From positions 32,001 to 96,000 of IMG/VR virus record IMGVR_UViG_3300036766_002288: a DNA stretch of 64,000 nucleotides; one strand, written 5' to 3'. Made by a program: the position numbers and the translations under genes. Shown piece after piece: positions 12,874 through 49,837 of the stretch. The DNA comes from a virus. Numbering within the stretch: the stretch's first letter is position 1; each line of letters opens with the position of its first letter. The notes beneath the pieces were generated by a model, which was given only the letters and a program-made list of their open reading frames with translations, was not told the DNA's origin and searched no databases.

Positions 12874-13671
12874 ATGGTATGTCAAGGTCAGCCAATGGGC
12901 TTTTATCGTGGTGAATGGGGTTCAGATGGCACCACGTTAAATTTCAACCCAAAACAGAAATCCAGATGGCTATTTCAAATACAAAATATTACAAGCGGTG
13001 ATGCTGGGTCTGGGCCATTACCTTGCATTAGAGCATCACGACCTAAACTACAATTCCGCCAAATGCAAGCAGAACACTTAAATGAGACAATATCTTATCC
13101 AAGTAAACCAGATTGGCAACCAATTCAAATTGTAATCTACGATAGATGTATATCATTTGAACACCCAATTATGACATGGTTGAGACAGCAATATGATCCT
13201 AGTCCTGTTGGTTGCAGTGCTTGGTATCCCTGCATTGATCCTTTGTCTTTTAAGACCTGTGCGCAGTTACTTTTGCTAGATGGATGTGGTAATATTGTTG
13301 AATCATGGACATTGGAACATTGCTATCCAGAAAATGTTGATTTTGGTGAACTTGACATGTCAAACATGGAAATTATTACAGCTGATGTGACACTAAGATA
13401 TGACCGTGCATTTCAAACGTTTCCAGTTGAGCCACATCCTTTATACCCAAGTGAGCCACATCCTTTATACCCAAGCACTACTTGTACATCCTGTGTTGAT
13501 CCAACATGTGATGAGTCTGAAGAAGGCGGCAGTGGCGGTGTTGATAACTCTGGTGGTAGTCAAAATCAACCTTCCAATGATACTAATGTATTCCCACCTG
13601 GCCCTGGAGGGGTCCAGACTAATCCTGGTTTTGCCCCTAGAATTGTGATTCCTGATTTTAGTATGATTTAA
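12874..13671 (+). CDS. second tail tube-like protein with low-complexity C-tail
   Basis: KQKSRW...RPKLQF...EHLNETISYPSKPDWQPI; YPENVDFGELD; VTLRYD. Confidence 0.75.
   Translation: MVCQGQPMGFYRGEWGSDGTTLNFNPKQKSRWLFQIQNITSGDAGSGPLPCIRASRPKLQFRQMQAEHLNETISYPSKPDWQPIQIVIYDRCISFEHPIMTWLRQQYDPSPVGCSAWYPCIDPLSFKTCAQLLLLDGCGNIVESWTLEHCYPENVDFGELDMSNMEIITADVTLRYDRAFQTFPVEPHPLYPSEPHPLYPSTTCTSCVDPTCDESEEGGSGGVDNSGGSQNQPSNDTNVFPPGPGGVQTNPGFAPRIVIPDFSMI
13428..13475 (+). repeat. perfect tandem 24-nt duplication (EPHPLYPS x2)
   Basis: TGAGCCACATCCTTTATACCCAAG twice. Confidence 0.9.
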
Positions 13672-14401: not shown

Positions 14402-14932
14402 TTAGAACTGACCTTTGGCAACGTAATTATTGGGATTGTTAGGTTTGTGTTTTAGTAGAACTTTTTCAACTTGGCTTTGTAAGAAATCGTGATATTTTTT
14501 CTTCAATTCGTTATAATTACGGGCAGTACGGTACAATTGTCGATAATGGTTTAGTATGCAAGTAGTCATATAATTGAATGCTTTGCCTTTAAGAGGGTCA
14601 AAACGATCAATTTTTTCAAAACAAATCATTACGCCTTCTTGTATAGCATCATCCATGTCTATCAAGTTAAATTTTCTTACAATGTTCTCCGATAAAGTTA
14701 AGAAAGCAACAGCTAATTGTGTCTGGGAGTCACTATAGGATTGTTTGGCTGTTGAATACAAGTCAGTTAAATTTTTCAATTTTTGATGAATTACAACGTT
14801 CTTATTCCCTCGCTTCTTTGACGCCTCTAAATCTTCAATACATATCTCGTATTTGATCTTTTCCCTTTTAGACTGTTGAAACCTATTAATAACTTCCTCA
14901 AATATTCTGTTATTAAGATATTCTGTACTCAA
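14402..14932 (-). CDS. sigma factor, T4 gp55-like late sigma
   Basis: DDAIQEGVMICFEKIDRFDPLKGKAFNYMTTCILN region-2 motif; TTG start after GGAGG. Confidence 0.8.
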   Translation of the reverse strand: MSTEYLNNRIFEEVINRFQQSKREKIKYEICIEDLEASKKRGNKNVVIHQKLKNLTDLYSTAKQSYSDSQTQLAVAFLTLSENIVRKFNLIDMDDAIQEGVMICFEKIDRFDPLKGKAFNYMTTCILNHYRQLYRTARNYNELKKKYHDFLQSQVEKVLLKHKPNNPNNYVAKGQF

Positions 14933-17529: not shown

Positions 17530-17846
17530 TATTTCCCTTCTTCACTAGGCGGCATATTTATAAATGTTGCTGCTTCTAAATAATTCATAAATACTGCAAC
17601 AAAATTTGCTATGAAACTAGACGCAAACCCGCCTACTATGATCTGCCAAGGTGCGATAGTGGGAAATGCCGCCCAAGCACAAAATAATCCACACCAAAAC
17701 CCAGAACATTGGTAACAATGAATTAATTTTGCAATTTTTTCTGGAAGGTGTTTATCAAAACCATCTCTTATTGGCTGCATAATCGTGCTGTCCACGACAA
17801 TATGAGTCAACCCAATAGACCCAAAAATAAACAAAATAATTTCCAT
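17529..17846 (-). CDS. small membrane protein (DUF1360-like)
   Basis: CYQCSGFWCG motif between hydrophobic helices. Confidence 0.6.
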   Translation of the reverse strand: MEIILFIFGSIGLTHIVVDSTIMQPIRDGFDKHLPEKIAKLIHCYQCSGFWCGLFCAWAAFPTIAPWQIIVGGFASSFIANFVAVFMNYLEAATFINMPPSEEGK

Positions 17847-33259: not shown

Positions 33260-34147
33260 ATGGTTACTAAAATAAGCAAGGGGTTAGCTATGCATAATTT
33301 AGAAATTGGCCCATTATCCTTAACTTTCATGAGAACGGTTCGCGTTAAAGAAGTCGATACTTCTAATCTTCCGCCTGGTATGGGCTGCATGGATATTTAC
33401 AAAGTTTCTGATTATGGTGAAAATTGTCCCAATTCCTGGGATAGAGATGCTTATTTCATAGCAATGCACGACATTGAAGCCATGTGGATGAATTTTCAGT
33501 GCTGCACTCCTGTCGCCATATTAATCAGCGCAGGTAACATCAACGCTATTTCTGGAGAAGAATTTGAAAACAAACTAGCCAAGGACAATTATTTAATAGC
33601 CCCACCACAACCTTGGCTAGATGGTTGGAAAAGCAACGATGGTAGTGTTTATCAATTCGTTTCAACCACGGCAGGCGAAGGATTAAGTGTCGGAGAACAG
33701 ATTTCAAAAACTAAAGATCATGCAATGCAAATTTCAGTATTTGAACCAAAAGACCCAGAAAAATTACGTAATACATTGAATACACCAAGAACAACTTGGG
33801 GTATGTCTGATGACGATGAATGTATTGCTAGTGATTATGACTTTTGCAAATGTGGGTCATTAAAAATGTGCGCAAGTGAAATGGCAGTCGGAAAAGGTGG
33901 AAAAATAATACAAAAAATATACGAAGACCCACATGGAATTGAAGAGTGGAAAGAAAATCCTACAAAAACTGTAAAGGTTTACTTAATTAATGCTGCACAG
34001 TTTGCAGAAATTACAAATAAGGAAATGCCACCAACGCCAGTCAGTAATCAAGAATACCAAGGTATGTGGTATGGACTAGACGACAACCACCTTAATGGCA
34101 CAACTGGTTCGGCAATTTTCAATAATTTAAAAAGTGTAGGAACCTAA
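33260..34147 (+). CDS. conserved hypothetical protein
   Basis: EAMWMNF, PQPWLDG, YQFV motifs resembling a widespread uncharacterised family. Confidence 0.7.
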   Translation: MVTKISKGLAMHNLEIGPLSLTFMRTVRVKEVDTSNLPPGMGCMDIYKVSDYGENCPNSWDRDAYFIAMHDIEAMWMNFQCCTPVAILISAGNINAISGEEFENKLAKDNYLIAPPQPWLDGWKSNDGSVYQFVSTTAGEGLSVGEQISKTKDHAMQISVFEPKDPEKLRNTLNTPRTTWGMSDDDECIASDYDFCKCGSLKMCASEMAVGKGGKIIQKIYEDPHGIEEWKENPTKTVKVYLINAAQFAEITNKEMPPTPVSNQEYQGMWYGLDDNHLNGTTGSAIFNNLKSVGT

Positions 34148-34149
34148 TC

Positions 34150-34470
34150 ATGAAGACAATTTTTGCTCTAATTTTCGGACTAACCTTGTTTCTAACAACA
34201 GTTATGGCCGATGCGCAAGTAATAGTGACAAGACGAGAATCAAAAATTTATTATCCTGTTGCTATACAAAATAGCCAGTGGCGAACTTTTTTTGTCGCAC
34301 CACATGGCTTTTACTACGATAATCGTGGTCACTTAACACCAGTTGGTTTTCGTTTCCATACCACGTTTAGACGTGGCGACCATGTATATGGCAGGGTAGT
34401 AAGACTACGTGTAGTAGCTACTCCAGTAGTAACTTTTGGTGCATGGACGTATACTCCAGAATGGCGATAA
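34150..34470 (+). CDS. small secreted hypothetical protein
   Basis: signal peptide MKTIFALIFGLTLFLTTVMADA. Confidence 0.6.
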   Translation: MKTIFALIFGLTLFLTTVMADAQVIVTRRESKIYYPVAIQNSQWRTFFVAPHGFYYDNRGHLTPVGFRFHTTFRRGDHVYGRVVRLRVVATPVVTFGAWTYTPEWR

Positions 34471-34477
34471 AAAGTTC

Positions 34478-34505
34478 TTGACAAGTCAGAAATTCATGCT
34501 AAGAT
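34478..34505 (+). promoter_or_regulatory. sigma70-type promoter of tRNA region
   Basis: TTGACA-16nt-TAAGAT with TGn extended -10. Confidence 0.75.
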
Positions 34506-34570
34506 AACAGTGTAAGATTTTTATCTAGAAAAATTTGGGTCCGTTGCATATATTAAGTAAGGAATTTAAA

Positions 34571-34648
34571 ATGTTTAATTTATCCGTAAGTTTGCTGTCC
34601 AGTTTATCATCGTTACTCTATAGTAACGCGGGAAGAGGGACCGAGTAA
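34571..34648 (+). CDS. Ser/Leu/Tyr-rich leader peptide MFNLSVSLLSSLSSLLYSNAGRGTE
   Basis: SD TAAGGA at 34558; 14 of codons 4-18 are Ser/Leu/Tyr; followed by terminator. Confidence 0.8.
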   Translation: MFNLSVSLLSSLSSLLYSNAGRGTE

Positions 34649-34667
34649 GCATACGGATTTCAGGGTT

Positions 34668-34710
34668 AAAAACCCACCGTGAGCCGAAAGGTTTACGGTG
34701 GGTTTTTTGT
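34668..34710 (+). terminator. attenuator terminator hairpin
   Basis: 18-bp stem AAAAACCCACCGTGAGCC/GGTTTACGGTGGGTTTTT, GAAA loop, T-tract. Confidence 0.9.
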
Positions 34711-34713
34711 TGG

Positions 34714-34725
34714 GTTCTTTGACAA
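34714..34725 (+). promoter_or_regulatory. boxA-like antitermination site
   Basis: GTTCTTTGACAA resembles rrn boxA (GCTCTTTAACAA); 15 nt before first tRNA. Confidence 0.55.
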
Positions 34726-34740
34726 TTTGGCTAGATTCTT

Positions 34741-34823
34741 GGTAGGTTCGGCATTGGCAAGCCAGCTTATTTCGAAAATAAGTAAACCGAAAGGTTTTGA
34801 GAATTCAACTTTCTCACCTACCG
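34741..34823 (+). tRNA. tRNA-Ser(CGA)
   Basis: GGTAGGT/ACCTACC-G, CTTAT-TTCGAAA-ATAAG, long variable arm. Confidence 0.85.
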
Positions 34824-34852
34824 CTATACCTTAGTTGTACTGACTAAGGAAA

Positions 34853-34938
34853 GGGTGCTGTTCCACACGCTTGTCTGTAAAACAAGTGCCATTAATATGT
34901 GTGGTGGATGGCGATGGGTTCAAATCCTACGGTGCCCA
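34853..34938 (+). tRNA. aberrant tRNA-Tyr(GTA)-like gene lacking a normal D-arm
   Basis: CTTGT-CTGTAAA-ACAAG, T-loop TTCAAAT, A73; D region only ~9 nt. Confidence 0.6.
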
Positions 34939-34946
34939 CTTGAAAT

Positions 34947-35029
34947 GTAGCGTTTGGGCATTGGCAAGCCCCACTGACTGTAAATCAGCCGCCCTATGGG
35001 CATTGTAGATTCGACTCCTGCACGCTGCA
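34947..35029 (+). tRNA. tRNA-Tyr(GTA)
   Basis: GTAGCGT/ACGCTGC-A, CTGA-CTGTAAA-TCAG, GCCC/GGGC variable arm. Confidence 0.8.
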
Positions 35030-35036
35030 CTGACTT

Positions 35037-35125
35037 GGAGTAAATTGAAAGTGGCTATTCTAATCACTCCGCTAAAGTGACAGGTGGGGAAACCCGCCTT
35101 GTGAGTTCGACGCTCACTTACTCCG
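35037..35125 (+). tRNA. tRNA-Ser(GCT)
   Basis: GGAGTAA/TTACTCC-G, TCACT-CCGCTAA-AGTGA (C33), 7-bp variable arm. Confidence 0.8.
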
Positions 35126-35126
35126 C

Positions 35127-35187
35127 TTCAATAAATTTTCCAAAAATTTATTGAACGGTTACTCTTGTATTATTATACAAGGAGTAA
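35127..35187 (+). promoter_or_regulatory. AT-rich palindrome plus RBS-sequestering hairpin upstream of HNH gene
   Basis: TTCAATAAATTTT/AAAATTTATTGAA then TTACTCTTGTAT/ATACAAGGAGTAA covering AAGGAG. Confidence 0.6.
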
Positions 35188-35190
35188 TCT

Positions 35191-35742
35191 ATGAAAAATT
35201 TAGAAGTCGAAATTATGACATTAAGGGAAGATGGGCATTCTTACAACGCCATAGCAAAAAAACTAAATTGTTCTAAAGGCACAATTAGTTATTATTGCGG
35301 TGAAGGACAAAAACAAAAAAGTAAAACAAGGATTCAGAATAGAAGAAAAAATACTGTAATTTCGAAACGTGTTGAAAACTTTCAAATTGATAGAAAAATA
35401 AGAGACAAATCTGAAGATTTTCAACGGGAAAGAATAATTGTTAAGAGTAAAACTCGTTTAGGCAAACGGTCTTTGACATTTACTTGGAGAGATGTAATTG
35501 ATAAATTCGGATGGGAAACAATATGTTATCTAACTGGAAGGGCTATAAATTTAAGAGAGCCGAAAACTTATCAGTTTGACCATATACATCCTTACGGCAA
35601 AGGAGGAAGTTCAACTTTAGATAATTTAGGTATTCTTATTAAAGAAGTAAATCAAGCTAAGGCAGACATGACCGTTGAAGAATTTTTAAATCTATGTAAA
35701 GACGTTTTGGAATATAATGGCTATGAAGTAAAACGTTTGTAA
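35191..35742 (+). CDS. HTH-HNH homing endonuclease
   Basis: N-terminal HTH (GHSYNAIAKKLNCSKGTISYY); CYLTG...FDHIHP...NLG...NQAK. Confidence 0.88.
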   Translation: MKNLEVEIMTLREDGHSYNAIAKKLNCSKGTISYYCGEGQKQKSKTRIQNRRKNTVISKRVENFQIDRKIRDKSEDFQRERIIVKSKTRLGKRSLTFTWRDVIDKFGWETICYLTGRAINLREPKTYQFDHIHPYGKGGSSTLDNLGILIKEVNQAKADMTVEEFLNLCKDVLEYNGYEVKRL

Positions 35743-35760
35743 ATGGAAGCTTCCGCTTAT

Positions 35761-35834
35761 GGCACAGTAGGCAATTAGCAGACCACTTTCGCTTAAAACG
35801 AGAGATGCTGTCAGTGCAAATCTGACCTGTGCTA
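35761..35834 (+). tRNA. short-variable-loop tRNA, Leu anticodon TAA
   Basis: GGCACAG/CTGTGCT-A; CTTTCG-CTTAAAA-CGAGAG; T-loop TGCAAAT. Confidence 0.7.
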
Positions 35835-35838
35835 CTTT

Positions 35839-35912
35839 GGCGACGTAGGCAATTAGCAGACCACTTAGACTCAGACTCTGAGATGCTGTCAGTGCAAGTC
35901 TGACCGTCGCTA
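35839..35912 (+). tRNA. short-variable-loop tRNA, Leu anticodon CAG
   Basis: GGCGACG/CGTCGCT-A; CTTAGA-CTCAGAC-TCTGAG; T-loop TGCAAGT. Confidence 0.7.
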
Positions 35913-35918
35913 CTTTTT

Positions 35919-35992
35919 GGCAACGTAGGCAATTAGCAGACCACTTTCTTTCAAACGGAGAGATGCTATGGGTGCGAGTCCCATCGTTGCTA
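35919..35992 (+). tRNA. short-variable-loop tRNA, Leu anticodon CAA
   Basis: GGCAACG/CGTTGCT-A; CTTTCT-TTCAAAC-GGAGAG; T-loop TGCGAGT. Confidence 0.7.
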
Positions 35993-35994
35993 CT

Positions 35995-36168
35995 ATGATA
36001 CCTAGACGTTTCAGAATACTATCTTCGTCCTCAATTATGACAGAATTAGGGATCAAAGACACCTATGGTGTTTTCTTTCCTGACTTTGGCACATTCATTA
36101 TAATGTCTGAAGAAAGAGGAATAGATGAGTTTGATGGTTGTCCCGAAGATGTTGAGTGGTTGGACTAG
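35995..36168 (+). CDS. small hypothetical protein
   Basis: ATG just after tRNA; ORF-track start overlaps the tRNA. Confidence 0.5.
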   Translation: MIPRRFRILSSSSIMTELGIKDTYGVFFPDFGTFIIMSEERGIDEFDGCPEDVEWLD

Positions 36169-36175
36169 ATAGTAT

Positions 36176-36922
36176 ATGGCTATTTTCCTAGAACATGTGA
36201 ATAAGCGAGATTTAAATAAAAGATTATTTGAAACTTTTGGCAAGTACAAAGTCTTCATTGTAGACGGCCAAGCCATTAGAAAACTTAATCTAACTGACCA
36301 TGAGTTTACTGATTCCGCCATCCATGCTACCTTTCCTAAATTAATACCAGATAAGGAAATATGGATAGATGATGTAATCAAACCGAATGAAAGATTTATA
36401 TTGATAAGTAATTTACTATCATTATACAAGTATTTAAGTAAAGAATCCTTGGACAAAGCTTATGATAAAGCATTGAAAAAAGAAAAGTCGATGAGGGAAA
36501 AGGTAGACAACGTAAGATTACATCCAGAAAAAACGAATGAAAGAGCGTCACCGAAGGTTTACAAGAGTCTATATGGTAAGATTGGAGATGTTAAGATTTG
36601 GTTGGTAGATGGGGAATACGTAAGAGATAAGTATAAGACAGATTATACCGAAGGTGGACACGATTACGTATACAAATGGATTCCACACAATGAAATTTGG
36701 ATTGAGTCCACAATGCATAAGTCTGAAATGCCTTTGATCGTTTTACATGAATTTGTGGAAAGAACATTGATGAAGACCAAGGGAATAGAGTATGATAAGG
36801 CACATACGATTGCATCGAAAGTGGAATTTGCAAAAGAAGATAAGTTTGATAGGAACGATGTTTTATCCATGACTGAGGATAAGGCATTGAAGATGGACGA
36901 GACGCGAGTGGTTAGCAACTGA
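36176..36922 (+). CDS. hypothetical protein with internal duplication (VDG..IR/VR...IP..EIWI), HE-x2-E motif
   Basis: two similar ~110-aa halves; 3' end overlaps tRNA-Ser. Confidence 0.7.
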   Translation: MAIFLEHVNKRDLNKRLFETFGKYKVFIVDGQAIRKLNLTDHEFTDSAIHATFPKLIPDKEIWIDDVIKPNERFILISNLLSLYKYLSKESLDKAYDKALKKEKSMREKVDNVRLHPEKTNERASPKVYKSLYGKIGDVKIWLVDGEYVRDKYKTDYTEGGHDYVYKWIPHNEIWIESTMHKSEMPLIVLHEFVERTLMKTKGIEYDKAHTIASKVEFAKEDKFDRNDVLSMTEDKALKMDETRVVSN

Positions 36923-36977
36923 TTTTGAAAATCAGGGGACCGAAAGGTTCTGTGGGTTCGAATCCCATCTCGATCCG
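36895..36977 (+). tRNA. tRNA-Ser(TGA) with bulged acceptor stem
   Basis: GGACGAG/CTCG-A-TCC-G; CTGAT-TTTGAAA-ATCAG; long arm. Confidence 0.75.
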
Positions 36978-36980
36978 CTT

Positions 36981-37067
36981 GGAGCGTTGGCAGAGTGGCT
37001 GAATGCGCTAGTCTTGAAAACTAGAGTCCCCTCACGGGGACCGAGGGTTCAAATCCTTCACGCTCCG
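36981..37067 (+). tRNA. tRNA-Ser(TGA), canonical
   Basis: GGAGCGT/ACGCTCC-G; CTAGT-CTTGAAA-ACTAG; long arm. Confidence 0.92.
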
Positions 37068-37069
37068 TA

Positions 37070-37114
37070 CAATAAAATTATCATAATTTTTATTGAACCC
37101 TAACTATGTTAGGG
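37070..37114 (+). promoter_or_regulatory. AT-rich palindrome plus RBS-sequestering hairpin upstream of HNH gene
   Basis: CAATAAAATTAT/ATAATTTTTATTG then CCCTAAC/GTTAGGG just before ATG 37116. Confidence 0.6.
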
Positions 37115-37115
37115 C

Positions 37116-37640
37116 ATGAAAGAACAAATATTAAAACTCCGTGCAGAAGGTTTGTCTTATAGGGAAATCTGTGCCCGATTAGACTGCTCAAAAAGTGTAG
37201 TGTCCTACCATTGTGGGGATGGACAAAAAGTAAAAACTAGGATTAGGGCACAAAAAAGACGAGGCAGGGCGGTTGTAGATAATAAAATTTATAGATTCAA
37301 AAATAAAAAAGCCTTGAGAGACAAAACGAACGATTTCCAACGAAGAGAAGGGGGCAAGCTTAAAATTAGAAAAATTATTTTTAATTATGAAGATGTAATG
37401 CAAAAATTTGGAGAAACCCCTATATGCTATTTAACGGGAAGAGAAATAAATTTAGAAGACACAAAAAACTATCACTTTGACCATATTATACCAGCAACGC
37501 GCGGCGGCTCAAACGATATAGATAATTTAGGACTAGCGTGTAAAGAAGCAAATAAAGCTAAGTCAGATATGACAATAAATGAGTTTATACAAATTTGTAA
37601 AGAAGTATTAGAGCATAATGGTTACAGGGTAATTAAGTAA
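37116..37640 (+). CDS. HTH-HNH homing endonuclease (paralogue of 35191)
   Basis: GLSYREICARLDCSKSVVSYH; CYLTG...FDHIIP...NLGLACKEANKAK. Confidence 0.88.
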   Translation: MKEQILKLRAEGLSYREICARLDCSKSVVSYHCGDGQKVKTRIRAQKRRGRAVVDNKIYRFKNKKALRDKTNDFQRREGGKLKIRKIIFNYEDVMQKFGETPICYLTGREINLEDTKNYHFDHIIPATRGGSNDIDNLGLACKEANKAKSDMTINEFIQICKEVLEHNGYRVIK

Positions 37641-37642
37641 TT

Positions 37643-37729
37643 GGACGGTTTGGACATTGGCAAGTCCCCTTAGTTGGAAACTAAGTACACCCGAAAGGGT
37701 GTGTAGAGTTCGAATCTCTAACCGCTCCG
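37643..37729 (+). tRNA. tRNA-Ser(GGA) with bulged acceptor stem
   Basis: GGACGGT/ACCG-C-TCC-G; CTTAG-TTGGAAA-CTAAG; long arm. Confidence 0.8.
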
Positions 37730-37734
37730 CTTAT

Positions 37735-37811
37735 GGCGCAGTGATGCAACCTTCGGCAGACATTCTTGACTTAGAATCAAGATTATATGGGTTCGAATCC
37801 CATCTGCGCTA
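37735..37811 (+). tRNA. short-variable-loop tRNA, Leu anticodon TAG
   Basis: GGCGCAG/CTGCGCT-A; CTTGA-CTTAGAA-TCAAG; variable loop ATTAT. Confidence 0.75.
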
Positions 37812-37827
37812 GTATAATAGTGAAAAT

Positions 37828-37910
37828 GCGGTAGTGGCGGAACGGTATACGCGCTTGCTTGAGGTGCAAGTCCCTTAAGTGGGATGTGGGTTCGACTCCC
37901 ACCTACCGCA
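37828..37910 (+). tRNA. tRNA-Leu(GAG)
   Basis: GCGGTAG/CTACCGC-A; CTTGC-TTGAGGT-GCAAG; long arm. Confidence 0.9.
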
Positions 37911-37912
37911 CT

Positions 37913-38155
37913 ATGAAAACTACATATTATCGACAATGCAAATTGCAGAAAAAGAACACCTTCCAAACCAGCTATATTCCAGAAGAATTTGCTGTTATGA
38001 ATAAGATTATTAAACTACGTGACAACAACGTATGGGATGATGGCTGGAAGGTCATCGCAGTTAGTTCTTCACGGCACGCAGATGATAACCTGCCTGACTC
38101 TCATTCTTCAATTAAGGCACATCGTAGGGCAACTGGTGATTCACAAAGGAAATAA
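37913..38155 (+). CDS. hypothetical protein
   Basis: ATG after tRNA; in frame with ORF-track 37859. Confidence 0.6.
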   Translation: MKTTYYRQCKLQKKNTFQTSYIPEEFAVMNKIIKLRDNNVWDDGWKVIAVSSSRHADDNLPDSHSSIKAHRRATGDSQRK

Positions 38156-38156
38156 T

Positions 38157-38441
38157 ATGTGTTTCATATATGATGAATACGCCGAACTTTACAAAGAAAA
38201 AGACGTAAAGGCAAAAAAAGAACACAAATGTTCTGAATGCGCCAGAACTATCTTTAAAAATGAGACGTATCAATATATTTTCACAATATTTCAAGGTGAT
38301 GCGACCACTACAAAGATTTGTTCAGATTGCAAGGATAAAAGACAAAAAATACATGATATAGAGATTAGTCATGGATGTAGCGAAAATGAATCTTGGCCTC
38401 CTTTAGGCGAACTAAGGGAATATTTACAACATTATGAATGA
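38157..38441 (+). CDS. Zn-finger hypothetical protein
   Basis: HKCSECARTI...ICSDC; SD AAAGGA. Confidence 0.65.
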   Translation: MCFIYDEYAELYKEKDVKAKKEHKCSECARTIFKNETYQYIFTIFQGDATTTKICSDCKDKRQKIHDIEISHGCSENESWPPLGELREYLQHYE

Positions 38442-38462
38442 TATATACTGTAAAGGAGTATC

Positions 38463-38660
38463 ATGGACAAGCGTGAATACCGACAACTAAAAAGGACTTT
38501 AAAAAAAGAAGGCAACAAAAAGGCACGAAAAAAACTTAAAAATGACTTAAGAGACAATCCTGAAGAAACCCATTGGTCAGAGATAGATTACGGCAACTGT
38601 AAGACCGAAGATATGAAAAAATACAGCAGAGGACATGAAGATGAATATAGGTCTATTTGA
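38463..38660 (+). CDS. small basic hypothetical protein
   Basis: SD AAGGAG; ORF track. Confidence 0.6.
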   Translation: MDKREYRQLKRTLKKEGNKKARKKLKNDLRDNPEETHWSEIDYGNCKTEDMKKYSRGHEDEYRSI

Positions 38661-39210
38661 TATGGACGGTAGCTTAGCTGATTATGAAGGTCAACTAAGG
38701 AAGGATTTGACCAAATGTCTTGGTGAAGAAGATTTGAAAAAGTTCGATGAGTTAGGCATGTGGAAAGCTGACGACCAAGAACCATTTAAATCACTCATTA
38801 GACTGATTAAGAATCAACCTTGTTGGTGGAAGAATCTCCCAGTAATGCAGAAAGGACTGGATATTTTCCACCTTGCTGTGCAGATTGGTTTTAAGAACCA
38901 TATTTTAACTAAGGGTCCAAAACATTATCCAAGGGCGTGGAAAGAAAAAGTTGAATGGTCTCAGCATTTATTTGGCAAGGATATTGACATTCATATAACA
39001 TCGGATAAAGGGTTAGTTTACGGCAGATTTTTATATGACGATTATCCTGATTATATGTTAAAATGGCTTGGGAGGCGTCCAAGGGGTTTGGGTATTATGC
39101 CAGTGAACAATTTCAATAAGGATTTTAACCATCCACAGGTAATTAAATGGGATGGAATAAACTATGATGAAGTGAAGGAAGCGTTGATAAAATGTTTCAA
39201 TAGGGGCTAA
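38641..39210 (+). CDS. HAD-family 5'(3')-deoxyribonucleotidase-like protein
   Basis: FDMDGSLAD motif I; LYDDYP motif IV. Confidence 0.8.
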   Translation: MNIGLFDMDGSLADYEGQLRKDLTKCLGEEDLKKFDELGMWKADDQEPFKSLIRLIKNQPCWWKNLPVMQKGLDIFHLAVQIGFKNHILTKGPKHYPRAWKEKVEWSQHLFGKDIDIHITSDKGLVYGRFLYDDYPDYMLKWLGRRPRGLGIMPVNNFNKDFNHPQVIKWDGINYDEVKEALIKCFNRG

Positions 39211-39231
39211 GTGGCAAAACGGTATACGCAG
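39205..39231 (+). pseudogene. decayed 5' fragment of tRNA-Leu
   Basis: 22/27 identity to first 27 nt of tRNA-Leu(CAA) at 39752; no anticodon or T arm follows. Confidence 0.65.
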
Positions 39232-39263
39232 AAATAAAAATTAAAACGTGTTTACTATATTAG

Positions 39264-39749
39264 TTGATGAGAAAAAGAAAATGGAATGACGAGCAATTAA
39301 TAGAAGCTGTTAAAACAAGCAAATCGGTGATGGAAGTATTGAAAAAAATTGGCTTAGGTTTAAGTGGTGGCTCCCATGCTTTGGTAAAAATGAGGATTAA
39401 ACATCTTAAAATTGATAATTCTCATTTTACAGGAAAAGGATGGTGCAGAGGGGAAAAGCACGAGGAATTCATTAAGCGAGTACTTCAGTATCCTTTAGAA
39501 CAAGTTTTAGTCAGAGATTCAACTTATCAGAACACACATGCCTTGAAAAAAAGACTTATAAAAGAAGGATTATTAATAAACGAATGTTGTAATTGTAAAC
39601 TAACCACATGGCTCAATGAGCCTATCAGTTTACAATTACATCATAAAGATGGAGATAGATGTAATAATTTGATTGGAAATCTATCAATACTATGTCCAAA
39701 TTGTCATAGTCAAACATCTACATTTGCAGGTAAGAGTAAAAGAAAATAA
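39264..39749 (+). CDS. HNH homing endonuclease
   Basis: CCNCKL...LQLHHKDGDRCNNLIGNLSILCPNCHSQT. Confidence 0.9.
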   Translation: MMRKRKWNDEQLIEAVKTSKSVMEVLKKIGLGLSGGSHALVKMRIKHLKIDNSHFTGKGWCRGEKHEEFIKRVLQYPLEQVLVRDSTYQNTHALKKRLIKEGLLINECCNCKLTTWLNEPISLQLHHKDGDRCNNLIGNLSILCPNCHSQTSTFAGKSKRK

Positions 39750-39751
39750 AC

Positions 39752-39832
39752 GGCCAAGTGGCGGAATGGTATACGCGGCACACTCAAAATGTGTTGTCCT
39801 TGGGCATGTGGGTTCGACTCCCACCTTGGCTA
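39752..39832 (+). tRNA. tRNA-Leu(CAA)
   Basis: GGCCAAG/CTTGGCT-A; GCACA-CTCAAAA-TGTGT; long arm. Confidence 0.92.
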
Positions 39833-39835
39833 CTT

Positions 39836-39997
39836 ATGAATACAAGTCTCAAATATCATGAAAAGATTTGGAAAGAATCCAGTTTTTTAACAAAGATTAA
39901 ATTTATTTTTTTTGGTTCGATCATATTCATGATCTTAATCGTTGGGTATTGTTGGGACAATGGAATTAAGAAGACATTGGATTTATTCAAAGAATGA
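39836..39997 (+). CDS. small membrane protein
   Basis: single hydrophobic helix; ATG after tRNA. Confidence 0.55.
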   Translation: MNTSLKYHEKIWKESSFLTKIKFIFFGSIIFMILIVGYCWDNGIKKTLDLFKE

Positions 39998-40419
39998 GCG
40001 TATTTCTATATAATTTTGAGCTTTTAACATGGATGCAATGGAAGATAAACTATCTTCCAGGCATTAGGGTTCAATGTGATTTCAGCAAGATTAATGCTAC
40101 ACCAGCGGTTCATATTGCAACTACGACAGATCAAATACGTTATCCTTGGTATGAAAATGGTGATTGGCGGGATGGGACTCCGTTGTGGTTCAAAGTTGGT
40201 GGTGGCCAGGTATTATGGCGGGGGCCTGCTGTAAGATATAAAGGTGTTTATTTAATTTTAGATGGGTGTCATAGGCTTCTTGACTTACAGCCAAGTATTG
40301 TTATAATGGATTATATTGATTTGAAGCAGGAAGAAATTTGTTATTTTAGTGACCTTTTAGGGATGTGGAACAATGACAATCCAAGAAGCGGCTGGTTTTT
40401 TGGTAAAACACCTGAATGA
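39994..40419 (+). CDS. ParB/Srx-like domain protein
   Basis: YLILDGCHRL motif. Confidence 0.5.
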   Translation: MSVFLYNFELLTWMQWKINYLPGIRVQCDFSKINATPAVHIATTTDQIRYPWYENGDWRDGTPLWFKVGGGQVLWRGPAVRYKGVYLILDGCHRLLDLQPSIVIMDYIDLKQEEICYFSDLLGMWNNDNPRSGWFFGKTPE

Positions 40420-40561
40420 TCCAGAAACATTTATTGTTTCTGTTCGGGATAATGAAATCTTTGTAGACGTTAATTGGATTTATCGTAAGTATGAAATAGA
40501 TCAATTAGGCGGCAGTTGGAACGGGTTTCCAGTGAAAACAGGTCGCATAAGTTGTTGGTAA
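40373..40561 (+). CDS. small hypothetical protein
   Basis: ORF track. Confidence 0.55.
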   Translation: MTIQEAAGFLVKHLNDPETFIVSVRDNEIFVDVNWIYRKYEIDQLGGSWNGFPVKTGRISCW

Positions 40562-40565
40562 GCAG

Positions 40566-40777
40566 CAATCGTGGCGGGTAGTGAGCATAGCAGGGGCGAA
40601 AACGCAAATATTCCGCGAACGAAGGACTGGGCGAGTGAGTGGTGAGCGATCTTTCTTTATTCATGGATGAATAAGTGGCTTATTAGAGGCGAAGTTCATC
40701 TAACTATGACAACCAGAAAGAGCGGCGGATATTCTAATCGGCGGTATCAAAAGGCGTGACACCTGCATAGTCGATTG
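40566..40777 (+). ncRNA. unidentified multibranched structured RNA directly upstream of tRNA-Leu
   Basis: GC-richer non-coding gap; nested stems CAATCG/CGATTG, GCAGG/CCTGC, AATATTCCGC/GCGGATATT, TCTTTCT/AGAAAGA, TTATTCA/TGAATAA, TTAGA/TCTAA. Confidence 0.55.
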
Positions 40778-40779
40778 AT

Positions 40780-40861
40780 GGCCAAGTGGTGGAACGGTAT
40801 ACACAGCAGACTTAAAATCTGCCGCCCGTTGGGCTTGCGGGTTCAACTCCCGCCTTGGCCA
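40780..40861 (+). tRNA. tRNA-Leu(TAA)
   Basis: GGCCAAG/CTTGGCC-A; GCAGA-CTTAAAA-TCTGC; long arm. Confidence 0.92.
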
Positions 40862-40865
40862 CTAT

Positions 40866-46379: not shown

Positions 46380-46910
46380 ATGAAATACACCAAGGAACTA
46401 CTTGAGGCCATAGTAAAAGAAAGCTTATCAGTAGCCCAAGTTATAAAGAAATTAGGACTAAAACAAGCTGGTGGTACGCATCATTACATTTCAAAAAAGC
46501 TTAAGTGCTTTGAAATTAATGTTGAGCATTTTACTGGACGCGCAAGTAACCACGGAGACATGCATAAAGGTGGCCCAGCTAAAAGAACGTGGCAAGAAAT
46601 ACTAGTTTTAAGAGAAGATGGTAAAAGACAAAGAGCATTTGTATTAAGACGTGCATTGATTGAATCTGGAAGCAATTACGAATGCAGTATATGTAATATT
46701 AAAGAATGGTTTGGCAAGACAATAATTCTAGAAGTAGACCATCTAAATGGCGATTATTGTGATGACAGAAAAGAAAATATAAGATTTATGTGCCCGAATT
46801 GTCATAGTCAATCACCTAAATATTGTGGCAGTAAGGGTTACACAACTATAACTAGCACTGCCAAATCGCAGAAAGAAAGAAGGAAGAGAGTACAGTTGGC
46901 CAAGTGGTGA
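46380..46910 (+). CDS. HNH homing endonuclease (paralogue of 39264)
   Basis: CSICNI...LEVDHLNGDYCDDRKENIRFMCPNCHSQ; stop lies inside downstream tRNA. Confidence 0.9.
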   Translation: MKYTKELLEAIVKESLSVAQVIKKLGLKQAGGTHHYISKKLKCFEINVEHFTGRASNHGDMHKGGPAKRTWQEILVLREDGKRQRAFVLRRALIESGSNYECSICNIKEWFGKTIILEVDHLNGDYCDDRKENIRFMCPNCHSQSPKYCGSKGYTTITSTAKSQKERRKRVQLAKW

Positions 46911-47001
46911 AATGGCATACACGCAGGTCTTATTGGTTAAACAACCAGCAATAGAAGCCTGTGCCCGTAAGGGCGTGCGGGTTCAAGTCCCGCCTTGGCC
47001 A
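46898..47001 (+). tRNA. tRNA-Leu (TAG if spliced) with 21-nt insertion in anticodon loop
   Basis: GGCCAAG/CTTGGCC-A, intact D/T/variable arms, CAGGT/GCCTG stem enclosing a 28-nt loop. Confidence 0.75.
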
Positions 47002-49713: not shown

Positions 49714-49837
49714 GGCCGAATAGTCTAACGGTATGGCGGTAGAATTACATTACGTGGCTTTGGCTGAAAATGCCGATATTATAGTTTCCACATAATCCCT
49801 AATCTACAGATGGCGGGTTCAATTCCCTCTTCGGCCA
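49714..49837 (+). tRNA. tRNA with 52-nt insertion in anticodon loop (identity uncertain; Val(TAC) if spliced at 37/38)
   Basis: GGCCGAA/TTCGGCC-A; D-loop AACGGTA; GTAGA/TCTAC stem enclosing 59 nt; T-loop TTCAATT. Confidence 0.7.

What the first reader, a model, noticed from the sequence alone, without database searches (positions are those of the whole stretch)
34478..34740. Leader-peptide transcription attenuator gating a phage Ser/Leu/Tyr tRNA array
Seen: promoter (34478), SD, then a 25-codon uORF (34571-34648). Codons 4-18 are 14/15 Ser, Leu or Tyr and deliberately mix synonymous codons: Ser TCC, AGT, TCA, TCG; Leu TTA, TTG, CTG, CTC; Tyr TAT. These are read by the anticodons encoded downstream (GGA, GCT, TGA, CGA; TAA, CAA, CAG, GAG; GTA). 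An 18-bp terminator follows (34668-34710). Alternative pairings exist. Protector: CGTTACT/AGTAACG (34611-17/34622-28), GTCC/GGAC, TCCGTA/TACGGA. Antiterminator: CGCGG (34627-31)/CCGTG (34677-81) plus GGGTT/AACCC, which together occupy the terminator 5' arm. Established: this is the layout of trp/thr/ilv/leu attenuators. Inference: a ribosome stalled on Ser/Leu codons frees CGCGG and allows readthrough, so the phage senses shortage or cleavage of host class II tRNAs (e.g. by anticodon-nuclease defences or starvation) and makes replacements on demand. I know attenuators controlling amino-acid biosynthesis genes, not phage tRNA arrays.
Basis: partly seen in the sequence, partly recalled or inferred. 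Interest (0 to 1): 0.95.

Follow-up and report, generated by a model that had tools for sequence, protein, structure and literature searches.

The report
Leader-peptide attenuator before phage tRNA array
A huge uncultured phage places a short gene built almost entirely of serine, leucine and tyrosine codons, followed by a transcription stop signal, in front of its cluster of Ser/Leu/Tyr tRNA genes; this is the layout bacteria use to sense amino-acid supply, here apparently reused to sense tRNA supply, which has not been described before.

Summary
At 34478-34740 a sigma-70-type promoter, a Shine-Dalgarno site, a 25-codon ORF (14 of 15 central codons Ser/Leu/Tyr), a 17-18 bp terminator and a boxA-like box precede an array limited to class II (Ser/Leu/Tyr) tRNAs. 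The tract is the richest Ser/Leu/Tyr window in all six frames of the 187-kb record.

I found the same unit in 11 other uncultured huge-phage contigs, one cut by its contig end. It occurs once per phage, always at the head of a class II (once a Ser-led mixed) array, never at the ~45 class I tRNAs of the 595-kb relative LR756511.1.

- The frame, start and SD are kept, and ORF indels are multiples of three.
- Synonymous Ser/Leu codons are more varied than codon usage predicts and address nearly every anticodon in the array.
- A long-range helix (codons 4-10 with the 10 nt after the stop) and the terminator show compensatory changes.

No Rfam family, paper or RNA data covers it. The scan had noted this stretch only in an overlapping window. 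It is most likely a ribosome-mediated attenuator; function is untested.

The parts
34478..34505 (+). Sigma-70-type promoter, TTGACA - 16 nt - TAAGAT
   Evidence: Scan gives 10/12. The same TTGACA-16-TA(A/T)GAT promoter (10-11/12) lies 58-89 nt upstream of the leader start in 8 close relatives.
34545..34556 (+). Conserved 5'-UTR box TGCATATATTAA. Function unknown; it may be the -10 of a second promoter.
   Evidence: Present in most relatives 20-35 nt before the start codon. A promoter-like match TAGAAA-17-TATATT lies at 34526-34554. Not followed up.
34559..34563 (+). Shine-Dalgarno AAGGA, 7 nt before the ATG
   Evidence: Sequence read. An (A)AGGA(A) or GGAG motif stands 5-10 nt before the start codon in all 11 complete leaders.
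34571..34648 (+). Leader ORF of 25 codons plus TAA. Codons 4-18 (34580-34624) are the Ser/Leu/Tyr tract. Codons 19-25 are a spacer.
   Evidence: The frame is open only in frame 0. Ser/Leu/Tyr make up 54-62% of the leader codons in frame 0 (46% in L013), against 4-35% in the other frames. All indels inside the ORF among relatives are multiples of 3.
34582..34600 (+). Region 1: 5' strand of the long-range helix P1/P1b (ATCCGTAAGTTTGCT + GTCC), lying in codons 4-10
   Evidence: MFE fold, RNAalifold consensus and pair counts.
34611..34628 (+). Inner hairpin P2, CGTTACT / AGTAACG
   Evidence: In LR756511.1 the hairpin is CGTTGCT/AGCAACG, a change that is both compensatory and synonymous.
34638..34658 (+). 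Region 2: 3' strand of P1b/P1 (GGAC ... AGTAAGCATACGGAT). It spans the last codons, the stop codon and the 10 nt after it. The conserved motif is GC(T)nnGCGGA.
   Evidence: The 1:2 duplex is stronger than shuffles in all 11 leaders, z -1.9 to -3.7.
34649..34684 (+). Predicted antiterminator. GC 34649-50, TACGG 34652-56 and GGGTT 34663-67 pair with AACCC 34671-75, CCGTG 34677-81 and GC 34683-84 of the terminator 5' arm.
   Evidence: Constrained folds. The post-stop region fits its own terminator better than 32 foreign ones, mean z -1.96. There is no covariation above shuffles.
34668..34712 (+). Intrinsic terminator: 17-18 bp stem, GAAA loop, T-run
   Evidence: Stability is -28.7 kcal/mol. Relatives have 16-22 bp stems at -29 to -41 kcal/mol with many compensatory changes. 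The stem starts 18-24 nt after the stop codon in most relatives, 11 nt in L068 and 29 nt in L015.
34713..34730 (+). boxA-like box GGTTCTTTGACAATTTGG between the terminator and the first tRNA
   Evidence: 13 of 17 positions match the E. coli rrn boxA-spacer ugcucuuuaacaauuua (PMC2724277). TCTTTGA(C/A)AA is kept 13-16 nt before the first tRNA in 8 leaders (the window included) and 52 nt before it in L015. It lies too close to the tRNA to be that tRNA's promoter.
34741..40862 (+). Regulated genes: the class II tRNA array, interspersed with HTH-HNH endonuclease ORFs. It holds Ser cga, gct, tga, gga; Tyr gta; and Leu taa, cag, caa, tag, gag, some of them twice.
   Evidence: ARAGORN and Rfam; Pfam for the HNH ORFs.

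Best explanation
This is a ribosome-mediated (leader-peptide) transcription attenuator that sets how many transcripts started at the promoter at 34478 run on into the phage's class II tRNA array.

The proposed logic follows the classical model.

- **No ribosome on the leader.** Region 1 (codons 4-10) pairs with region 2 (last codons, stop codon and the next 10 nt). The terminator then forms and transcription ends at about 34708.
- **Fast translation.** A ribosome that reads the leader without delay reaches the TAA and covers region 2. The terminator again forms.
- **Stalled ribosome.** A ribosome that waits at any of the 14 Ser, Leu or Tyr codons covers or holds open region 1 and leaves region 2 free. 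Seven spacer codons keep it off region 2. Region 2 plus the GGGTT just downstream then pairs with the terminator 5' arm as that arm emerges, and polymerase reads through. The boxA-like box that follows may then make the polymerase resistant to termination.

The tract uses many synonymous codons that together address nearly every anticodon encoded downstream. The element would therefore report the decoding capacity for exactly the codons the array serves, and would shut off again once the phage tRNAs are abundant. That makes it a feedback loop on tRNA supply.

**Shown:** the sequence elements, their conservation, the frame, the codon statistics, covariation in helix 1:2 and in the terminator, and exclusive linkage to class II arrays.

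**Inferred:** translation of the ORF, formation and effect of the antiterminator, response to tRNA level, and the boxA function.
For: **Conservation**
- There are 12 copies in all: the window, 10 other complete leaders and one copy cut by its contig end.
- Model R1 finds exactly one copy per phage record in 1.4 Mb, including the whole 595-kb LR756511.1.
- It finds none elsewhere in 1.1 Mb of related loci, none in 823 kb of prokaryote MAG loci that carry the same neighbouring gene, and none at the class I tRNA clusters of LR756511.1.

**Coding signs**
- SD and start codon are kept, and ORF indels are 3, 6, 9 or 12 nt.
- The Ser/Leu/Tyr excess is specific to frame 0.
- The order of S, L and Y varies between relatives while the composition is kept.

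**Codon design**
- The tract is the top-ranking Ser/Leu/Tyr window of the whole record.
- Distinct Ser+Leu codons number 101 against 81.6 +/- 3.7 expected.
- The rare TCG codon, read only by tRNA-Ser(cga), is in all 11 leaders.
- Leader codons address 10 of 10 class II anticodons in L008 and L024, and all Ser/Leu/Tyr anticodons in the window.
- L015 has two Cys and two Phe codons in its leader, and its array alone carries two tRNA-Cys genes plus a tRNA-Phe.

**Structure**
- RNAalifold recovers P1, P1b and the terminator. 17 of 28 pairs show double compensatory change.
- P1 is paired in 84.6% of cells against 19-49% when slid, and 1 of 500 shuffles reaches that value.
- Masking the ribosome footprint switches region 2 onto the terminator 5' arm in all 11 leaders, at -12.5 to -30.5 kcal/mol. 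A ribosome at the stop codon leaves only -1.3 to -8.7.
- Region 2 fits its own terminator better than 32 foreign strong terminators, mean z -1.96, with 8 of 11 at or below 6%.
- The direct-path barrier from the antiterminator state to the terminator state is 5.0-15.6 kcal/mol. The same script gives 5.8 for E. coli trpL and 15.6 for hisL.
Against: - There is no expression, Term-seq or ribosome data. No RNA run holds this DNA.
- The antiterminator is the weak link. Against dinucleotide shuffles its mean z is only -1.1, and it is not better than shuffles in L006, L008, L023 and L068. trpL and hisL give -2.6.
- On the alignment the antiterminator is kept mostly by invariant bases, with no covariation above shuffles.
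- The antiterminator helices (-11 to -20 kcal/mol) are much weaker than the terminator (-29 to -41).
- The sequences are related, so the statistics over 11 leaders are not independent.
- In the most divergent copy (L013/L109) the array continues with Ile and two Pro tRNAs, while the leader has no Pro codon. Leader content therefore does not track array content strictly.
- Promoter-like sites inside the array could feed distal tRNAs independently.
- Making more tRNA would not relieve stalling caused by amino-acid starvation, so the circuit only makes sense if tRNA itself is limiting.
Confidence: 0.7

Rival explanations
1. This is a fixed terminator with an independent small gene. The promoter, micro-ORF and terminator form a short self-contained transcript. 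Entry into the tRNA array is decided by something else, such as a Nus/boxA-type or phage-encoded antitermination factor, internal promoters, or timing of infection. Ribosome position would play no part.
For: - The terminator is very strong (-29 to -41 kcal/mol) relative to the proposed antiterminator.
- A conserved boxA-like box follows it.
- Antiterminator covariation is absent.
- Promoter-like sites exist inside the array.
Against: - It does not explain why the ORF is built from the very codons the array decodes, with excess synonymous variety.
- It does not explain why a helix links codons 4-10 to the 10 nt after the stop codon, with compensatory changes.
- It does not explain why the motif sits within a ribosome footprint of the stop codon in all copies.
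- It does not explain why region 2 fits its own terminator better than foreign ones.
- The peptide order is not conserved, and the peptide matches no Pfam or PHROG family.
Confidence: 0.12
2. This is an untranslated structured leader RNA. The conserved fold would serve processing, stability, or binding of a protein or a tRNA, and the open frame with its Ser/Leu/Tyr bias would be a by-product of a pyrimidine-rich strand.
For: - The fold is very stable, z = -8, with covarying helices.
- Third-position excess variability is only modest: 0.35 against 0.23 and 0.29.
Against: - SD and start are kept in all 11 complete leaders.
- Every ORF indel is a multiple of three, while indels after the stop codon are not.
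- The bias is specific to frame 0 and includes purine-rich AGT/AGC Ser codons.
- No Rfam family, T-box included, matches at E <= 1.
Confidence: 0.08
3. The element is translation-coupled but works by a different logic. Leader translation might, for example, open P1 to expose a nuclease or Rho entry site, or the nascent Ser/Leu/Tyr peptide might act as an arrest peptide. The output would then not be a simple read-out of tRNA supply.
For: - The antiterminator is weak.
- The N-terminal residues (H-T-F-S-A) and the C-terminal residues (R-W/G-T-E) are fairly conserved within subgroups.
Against: - An intrinsic terminator with a U-tract is kept at a fixed distance from the stop codon.
- The three-way complementarity 1:2, 2:3, 3:4 is the classical design.
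- The conserved terminal residues coincide with the strands of P1 and P1b, so RNA pairing explains them.
Confidence: 0.08

Closest known systems
Leader-peptide attenuators of enterobacterial amino-acid operons (trpL, hisL, leuL, thrL, ilvL, pheL)
   Same: The parts are the same: promoter, SD, a short ORF enriched in regulatory codons, mutually exclusive pairings 1:2, 2:3 and 3:4, and a U-tract terminator. Region 2 lies within a ribosome footprint of the stop codon, as in trpL. The refolding barrier falls in the same range as trpL and hisL under one script.
   Different: - The regulated genes are tRNAs, not enzymes.
- The sensor mixes three amino acids and most of their synonymous codons instead of a run of one codon.
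- It is carried by phages.
- The terminator is far stronger than the antiterminator.
- There is no sequence or Rfam relationship.
pheST (pheM leader) attenuator of E. coli, recalled from memory
   Same: Leader-peptide attenuation is applied to a gene of the translation apparatus that handles the sensed amino acid.
   Different: The target there is an aminoacyl-tRNA synthetase, with a single amino acid and a bacterial chromosome. I did not examine it here.
T-box riboswitches
   Same: They also couple tRNA status to read-through of a terminator, through an antiterminator.
   Different: A T-box binds uncharged tRNA directly and needs no translation. No T-box match was found, and the present element has a conserved ORF.
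rrn / lambda boxA Nus-factor antitermination
   Same: The box after the terminator matches the rrn boxA-spacer at 13 of 17 positions. As in rrn operons, it precedes a long untranslated stable-RNA operon.
   Different: Here it follows an attenuator, so only read-through transcripts would carry it. Binding of NusB/NusE is untested.
Phage tRNAs as counter-defence (T5 tRNA-Tyr against retron PtuAB, PMC11555353; tRNA-Lys against PARIS, PMC11464382; anticodon-loop variants, PMC10264068)
   Same: Phage-encoded tRNAs replace host tRNAs that are lost during infection.
   Different: Those reports describe the tRNAs, not a sensor controlling their synthesis. No link between this array and any nuclease was shown here. 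The bacterial Schlafen studied in PMC13056530 cleaves Lys, Ala and Met tRNAs and is not class II-specific.

Membership tests
Ribosome-mediated (leader-peptide) transcription attenuator | Promoter-proximal short ORF with a ribosome-binding site | tested here: met
   A promoter scoring 10-11/12, an SD and an ATG/GTG start are kept in relatives. ORFs run 21-29 codons.
Ribosome-mediated (leader-peptide) transcription attenuator | ORF enriched in codons that correspond to the regulated product | tested here: met
   14 of 15 codons are Ser/Leu/Tyr, the top window of the 187-kb record. Ser/Leu/Tyr make up 46-62% of the leader codons in all 11 leaders. The codons address nearly all anticodons of the array.
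Ribosome-mediated (leader-peptide) transcription attenuator | Intrinsic terminator between the ORF and the regulated genes | tested here: met
   A 16-22 bp GC-rich stem plus a T-run starts 11-29 nt after the stop codon. It shows compensatory changes.
Ribosome-mediated (leader-peptide) transcription attenuator | Protector pairing 1:2 between the coding region and downstream RNA | tested here: met
   Paired in 84.6% of cells against 19-49% when slid. 1 of 500 shuffles reaches that value. Duplex z is -1.9 to -3.7 in all 11 leaders.
Ribosome-mediated (leader-peptide) transcription attenuator | Antiterminator pairing 2:3 that excludes the terminator | tested here: inconclusive
   It is predicted in all 11 leaders and fits its own terminator better than foreign ones, mean z -1.96. 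Mean z against shuffles is only -1.1, and there is no covariation.
Ribosome-mediated (leader-peptide) transcription attenuator | Geometry: a ribosome at the stop codon masks region 2, and a ribosome at a regulatory codon leaves it free | tested here: met
   The region 2 motif begins 1-10 nt after the stop codon in all copies. At least 3-7 non-regulatory codons separate the tract from the stop codon.
Ribosome-mediated (leader-peptide) transcription attenuator | Read-through rises when the cognate charged tRNA is short, and the leader is translated | not testable with these tools
   No RNA run holds this DNA. The phage is uncultured and has no cultured relative.
Curated Rfam leader and riboswitch families (Trp, His, Leu, Thr leaders, T-box and others) | Match to a covariance model | tested here: not met
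   There is no hit on 34478-34740 at gathering score or at E <= 1.
boxA (NusB/NusE-binding antitermination element) | Similarity to the consensus GCUCUUUAACAA plus spacer, positioned early in a stable-RNA operon | tested here: met
   13 of 17 positions are identical to the rrn boxA-spacer. The box is present in 9 of the 11 complete leaders, the window included.
boxA (NusB/NusE-binding antitermination element) | Binds NusB/NusE and confers termination resistance | not testable with these tools
   This needs biochemistry or genetics.

The most novel reading that the evidence does not exclude
The element is the sensor arm of a counter-defence. Class II tRNAs (Ser, Leu, Tyr) would be depleted during infection, either by a host nuclease that recognises the long variable arm or by the phage's own shut-off of the host. 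The leader would detect the resulting ribosome stalling codon by codon and switch on a full replacement set. That set includes Leu-anticodon tRNAs that lack the long arm and would escape such a nuclease. This would be the first regulatory circuit known to measure decoding capacity in order to control tRNA synthesis, and the first evidence for class II-directed tRNA warfare in bacteria.
Probability: 0.2. Interest if true: 0.95.

Novelty: new variant of a known kind. Interest (0 to 1): 0.85.

Why it matters
Leader-peptide attenuation is a textbook mechanism, but it is known for genes that make or charge amino acids, not for tRNA genes. It is also known with one sensed amino acid, not a panel of synonymous codons that matches a set of isoacceptors. 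If it works as read, three things follow.

1. Ribosome speed on chosen codons can serve as a direct gauge of tRNA supply.
2. Huge phages would be seen to regulate, not just carry, their translation components.
3. The puzzle of why these phages keep class II tRNAs in a separate array would become testable.

The unit is compact, about 270 nt, and has E. coli-like promoter, SD and terminator signals. It can therefore be tested in a laboratory strain even though the phage is uncultured. It could also serve as a codon-specific reporter of tRNA availability.

Tried and rejected
- **RNA evidence.** No RNA holder is listed. Laying DNA contigs of four sediment and freshwater runs showed only strain variants, including a G.U to U.G swap in the terminator. 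It gave no expression information.
- **Pattern scans of viral contigs.** Scans returned only contigs already found, plus one chance match (L110).
- **Cultured relatives.** A protein search of cultured phages found only LR756511.1 and a distant unrelated record.
- **Genome scan.** The neighbouring gene has homologues in many bacterial and archaeal MAGs. None carries the leader, and no host could be inferred.
- **Other tRNA arrays.** I looked for matching leaders in front of the class I clusters of LR756511.1 and of L014, L059, L103 and L104. None was found.
CGCGG/CCGTG is rejected.
- **Simple duplex test of 2:3.** Against shuffles this was weak, mean z -0.7. It was replaced by a fold-based test and a foreign-terminator test.
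- **Controls.** The post-stop test cannot see the antiterminators of thrL and leuL, because their region 2 lies inside the ORF.
- **Phage synthetases.** No Pfam match to Seryl_tRNA_N, tRNA-synt_1b or tRNA-synt_1 in five records.
- **The TTGACA at 34719.** It is rejected as the promoter of the first tRNA, because a -10 would fall inside the tRNA.
- **Bacterial Schlafen paper.** It gives no class II specificity.
- **Literature searches.** No report of leader-peptide control of tRNA genes turned up.
Full report
**The stretch itself**

The window is part of a 187-kb IMG/VR virus record, estimated at about 37% complete. It is therefore a fragment of a very large phage. It comes from sediment metagenomes.

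At 34478-34505 there is a TTGACA-16-TAAGAT promoter. AAGGA lies at 34559-63. An ATG ORF of 25 codons, MFNLSVSLLSSLSSLLYSNAGRGTE, runs from 34571 to 34648.

A 17-18 bp hairpin with a GAAA loop and a T-run occupies 34668-34712. The first tRNA, Ser(cga), starts at 34741.

The array that follows, up to 40862, holds Ser cga, gct, tga, gga, Tyr gta, and Leu taa, cag, caa, tag, gag, some of them twice. HTH-HNH endonuclease ORFs lie between the tRNAs.

**Is it more than chance?**

Among 171,378 stop-free 15-codon windows in the six frames of the whole record, this is the only one with 14 Ser/Leu/Tyr codons. The best unrelated windows have 12. From base composition the chance per window is about 8e-8.

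The leader with its terminator folds at -60 kcal/mol. Shuffles give -31.5 +/- 3.5, so z = -8.

**Relatives**

A DNA search hit only the 595-kb uncultured phage LR756511.1. That phage has the same promoter, a 27-codon ORF (VHTFSASLRLSSYSLSSLLYSNVRRGT), a terminator and a Ser/Leu/Tyr array.

I then used the conserved upstream gene, a 295-aa protein with no Pfam or PHROG family, as an anchor in viral and metagenome contigs. With a small script I found the unit in L004/L005, L006/L007, L008, L013, L015, L023, L024, L026 and L068. Covariance model R1 added L009, which is cut by its contig end.

That makes 12 copies: 11 complete and distinct leaders, the window included, plus the truncated L009. Each is a 21-29 codon ORF with SD and ATG or GTG. 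Ser/Leu/Tyr codons make up 46-62% of each. A stop codon is followed by the motif GC(T)nnGCGGA, and the terminator stem starts 11-29 nt after the stop, usually 18-24 nt.

- R1 finds exactly one copy in each of five phage records, 1.4 Mb in all.
- It finds nothing else in 1.1 Mb of related loci.
- It finds nothing in 823 kb of prokaryote MAG loci that carry a homologue of the anchor gene.
- In LR756511.1 about 45 class I tRNAs lie at 220-291 kb. None has a leader plus terminator in front.

The element therefore goes with class II arrays, not with the anchor gene and not with tRNA genes in general.

**Signs of translation**

- SD and start codon are kept in all copies.
- In a MAFFT alignment that knows nothing of codons, every gap run inside the ORF is 3, 6, 9 or 12 nt. 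After the stop codon there are runs of 1, 2 and 10 nt.
- The Ser/Leu/Tyr excess is seen only in frame 0. The other two frames give 4-35% and mostly contain stops.
- Between relatives the order of S, L and Y changes while the composition is kept. Many replacements stay inside the set. This fits regulatory codons better than a functional peptide.
- Third positions vary somewhat more than first and second positions: 0.35 against 0.23 and 0.29.

**Codon design**

Summed over the 11 leaders, the number of distinct Ser and Leu codons is 101. Each phage's own codon usage predicts 81.6 +/- 3.7, and 0 of 5000 simulations reach 101. The leaders are related, so this is not 11 independent trials.

Rare codons that need a dedicated tRNA are used. 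TCG makes up 3-14% of Ser codons in 10 of the 11 loci (20% in GC-rich L015) and is read only by anticodon CGA. It is present in every leader.

In L008 and L024 the leader addresses 10 of 10 anticodons of the array. In the window it addresses all Ser, Leu and Tyr anticodons.

L015 has two Cys and two Phe codons in its leader. Its array is the only one with two tRNA-Cys genes, and it also has a tRNA-Phe.

Against a strict match, the array of L013/L109 goes on with Ile(tat) and two Pro tRNAs, while that leader has no Pro codon.

**RNA structure**

RNAalifold on the 11 sequences gives three elements:
- a long-range helix P1 that joins codons 4-7 to the 10 nt after the stop codon;
- its extension P1b (GTCC/GGAC);
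- the terminator.

17 of 28 pairs show changes on both sides that keep the pair. Examples in P1 are AGC/GCT becoming AAC/GTT in L026, GCT/AGC becoming GCA/TGC in L068, and CTA/TAG becoming CTT/AAG in L015.

P1 is paired in 84.6% of cells, against 19-49% when the partner columns are slid. 1 of 500 shuffles reaches that value. The 1:2 duplex beats shuffles in every leader, z -1.9 to -3.7.

**The switch**

I folded each leader with the terminator 3' arm absent and a ribosome footprint masked.

- **No ribosome.** P1 forms and the terminator 5' arm stays mostly free.
- **Ribosome held in the tract.** The post-stop motif and the GGGT just before the terminator pair with the terminator 5' arm in all 11 leaders, at -12.5 to -30.5 kcal/mol.
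- **Ribosome on the stop codon.** The motif is covered and only weak hairpins remain, at -1.3 to -8.7 kcal/mol.

In the window the antiterminator is GC 34649-50, TACGG 34652-56 and GGGTT 34663-67 pairing with 34671-84. The seven codons after the tract keep a stalled ribosome off region 2. This is the classical three-state logic.

**How good is the antiterminator?**

This is the weakest point.

- Against dinucleotide shuffles of the spacer the mean z is -1.1. It is strong only in L015 (-3.9) and L013 (-2.9), and fairly strong in L026 (-1.8) and the window (-1.6).
- The same script gives -2.6 for E. coli trpL and hisL. It cannot see thrL and leuL, whose region 2 lies inside the ORF.
- On the alignment the pairs are kept in 73% of cells, against 38-50% when slid, but without covariation above shuffles.
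- A fairer null is 32 other strong terminators from the same loci. Against these, each post-stop region fits its own terminator better: mean z -1.96, 8 of 11 at or below 6%, and 5 of 11 better than all 32.
- The terminator is much more stable than the antiterminator. The direct-path barrier from the antiterminator state to the terminator state is 5.0-15.6 kcal/mol, the same range as trpL (5.8) and hisL (15.6).

**After the terminator**

I compared it with the rrn boxA-spacer printed in PMC2724277; 13 of 17 positions agree.

TCTTTGA(C/A)AA is kept 13-16 nt before the first tRNA in 8 leaders (the window included) and 52 nt before it in L015. It cannot be the promoter of the first tRNA, because a -10 would fall inside that tRNA. 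A Nus-type antitermination role for read-through transcripts is a reasonable inference, but it is untested.

**Comparison with what is known**

No Rfam family matches the leader, even at E <= 1. Four full-text searches found no paper describing leader-peptide control of tRNA genes.

The element works like the trp/his class of attenuators. It meets the definition in every feature that can be read from sequence, except that the antiterminator is only moderately supported. It is not related to them by sequence.

It differs in four ways: the target is tRNA genes, the sensor is a panel of three amino acids and most of their synonymous codons, the carrier is a clade of huge phages, and a boxA-like box follows.

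These phages carry no SerRS, LeuRS or TyrRS signatures. Their tRNAs must therefore be charged by host enzymes.

**Verdict**

The interpretation as an attenuator is well supported by comparison and remains unproven by experiment.

Why the phage needs it is open. It could be simple feedback on its own tRNA supply, or detection of class II tRNA loss. I put 0.7 on a ribosome-mediated attenuator that responds to Ser/Leu/Tyr decoding.

Noticed in passing
window 35761-35993; also L004:13741-14416 and L006:12118-12193, 13572-13647, 14513-14588, 17728-17803: These Leu-anticodon tRNAs are only 75-76 nt long, so they lack the long variable arm. Canonical 82-84 nt tRNA-Leu genes lie beside them in the same array. 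The short forms are kept across the clade. They could be replacements that escape something recognising the class II arm.
   Followed up: partly
window 34713-34730 and the matching place in 8 relatives: A boxA-like box lies between the attenuator terminator and the first tRNA. 13 of 17 positions match the E. coli rrn boxA-spacer.
   Followed up: yes
window 34545-34556 and relatives: A conserved 5'-UTR box TGCATATATTAA lies 15-35 nt before the leader start codon. It may be the -10 of a second promoter. In the window's fold the SD pairs with 34534-34547.
   Followed up: no
window 35191-35742 and 37116-37640: Two paralogous HTH-HNH endonuclease ORFs sit between tRNA genes, as with homing endonucleases in other phage tRNA regions.
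   Followed up: partly
window 34825-34946, 36892-36976, 46898-47001, 49714-49837: These tRNA-like sequences are missed by ARAGORN at default settings or called with inserts. The first is a Tyr-like unit between Ser(cga) and Tyr(gta). The second is a Ser-like unit. The last two are long units of 104 and 124 nt that reach the Rfam tRNA threshold.
   Followed up: no
window 33260-34147 and 34150-34470: The upstream 295-aa protein has no Pfam or PHROG family but has a strongly conserved PPQPWLDGWK motif. Homologues at 30-43% identity occur in many bacterial and archaeal MAGs. The 106-aa ORF after it begins with a signal-peptide-like segment and is also kept in relatives.
   Followed up: partly
L011:6988-7247, L031 and L039: More distant relatives of the clade carry CTA-anticodon (amber suppressor-like) tRNAs and a tRNA with a four-base anticodon call. 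This hints at stop-codon recoding in some of these phages.
   Followed up: no
L001:3054-3068; L006, L008 and L024 after the leader stop codon: In leaders that end in TAG, the post-stop motif GCTTAGCGG supplies a second in-frame TAG two codons later. L001 has three TAGs. A ribosome reading through the first stop would therefore still halt on region 2.
   Followed up: no
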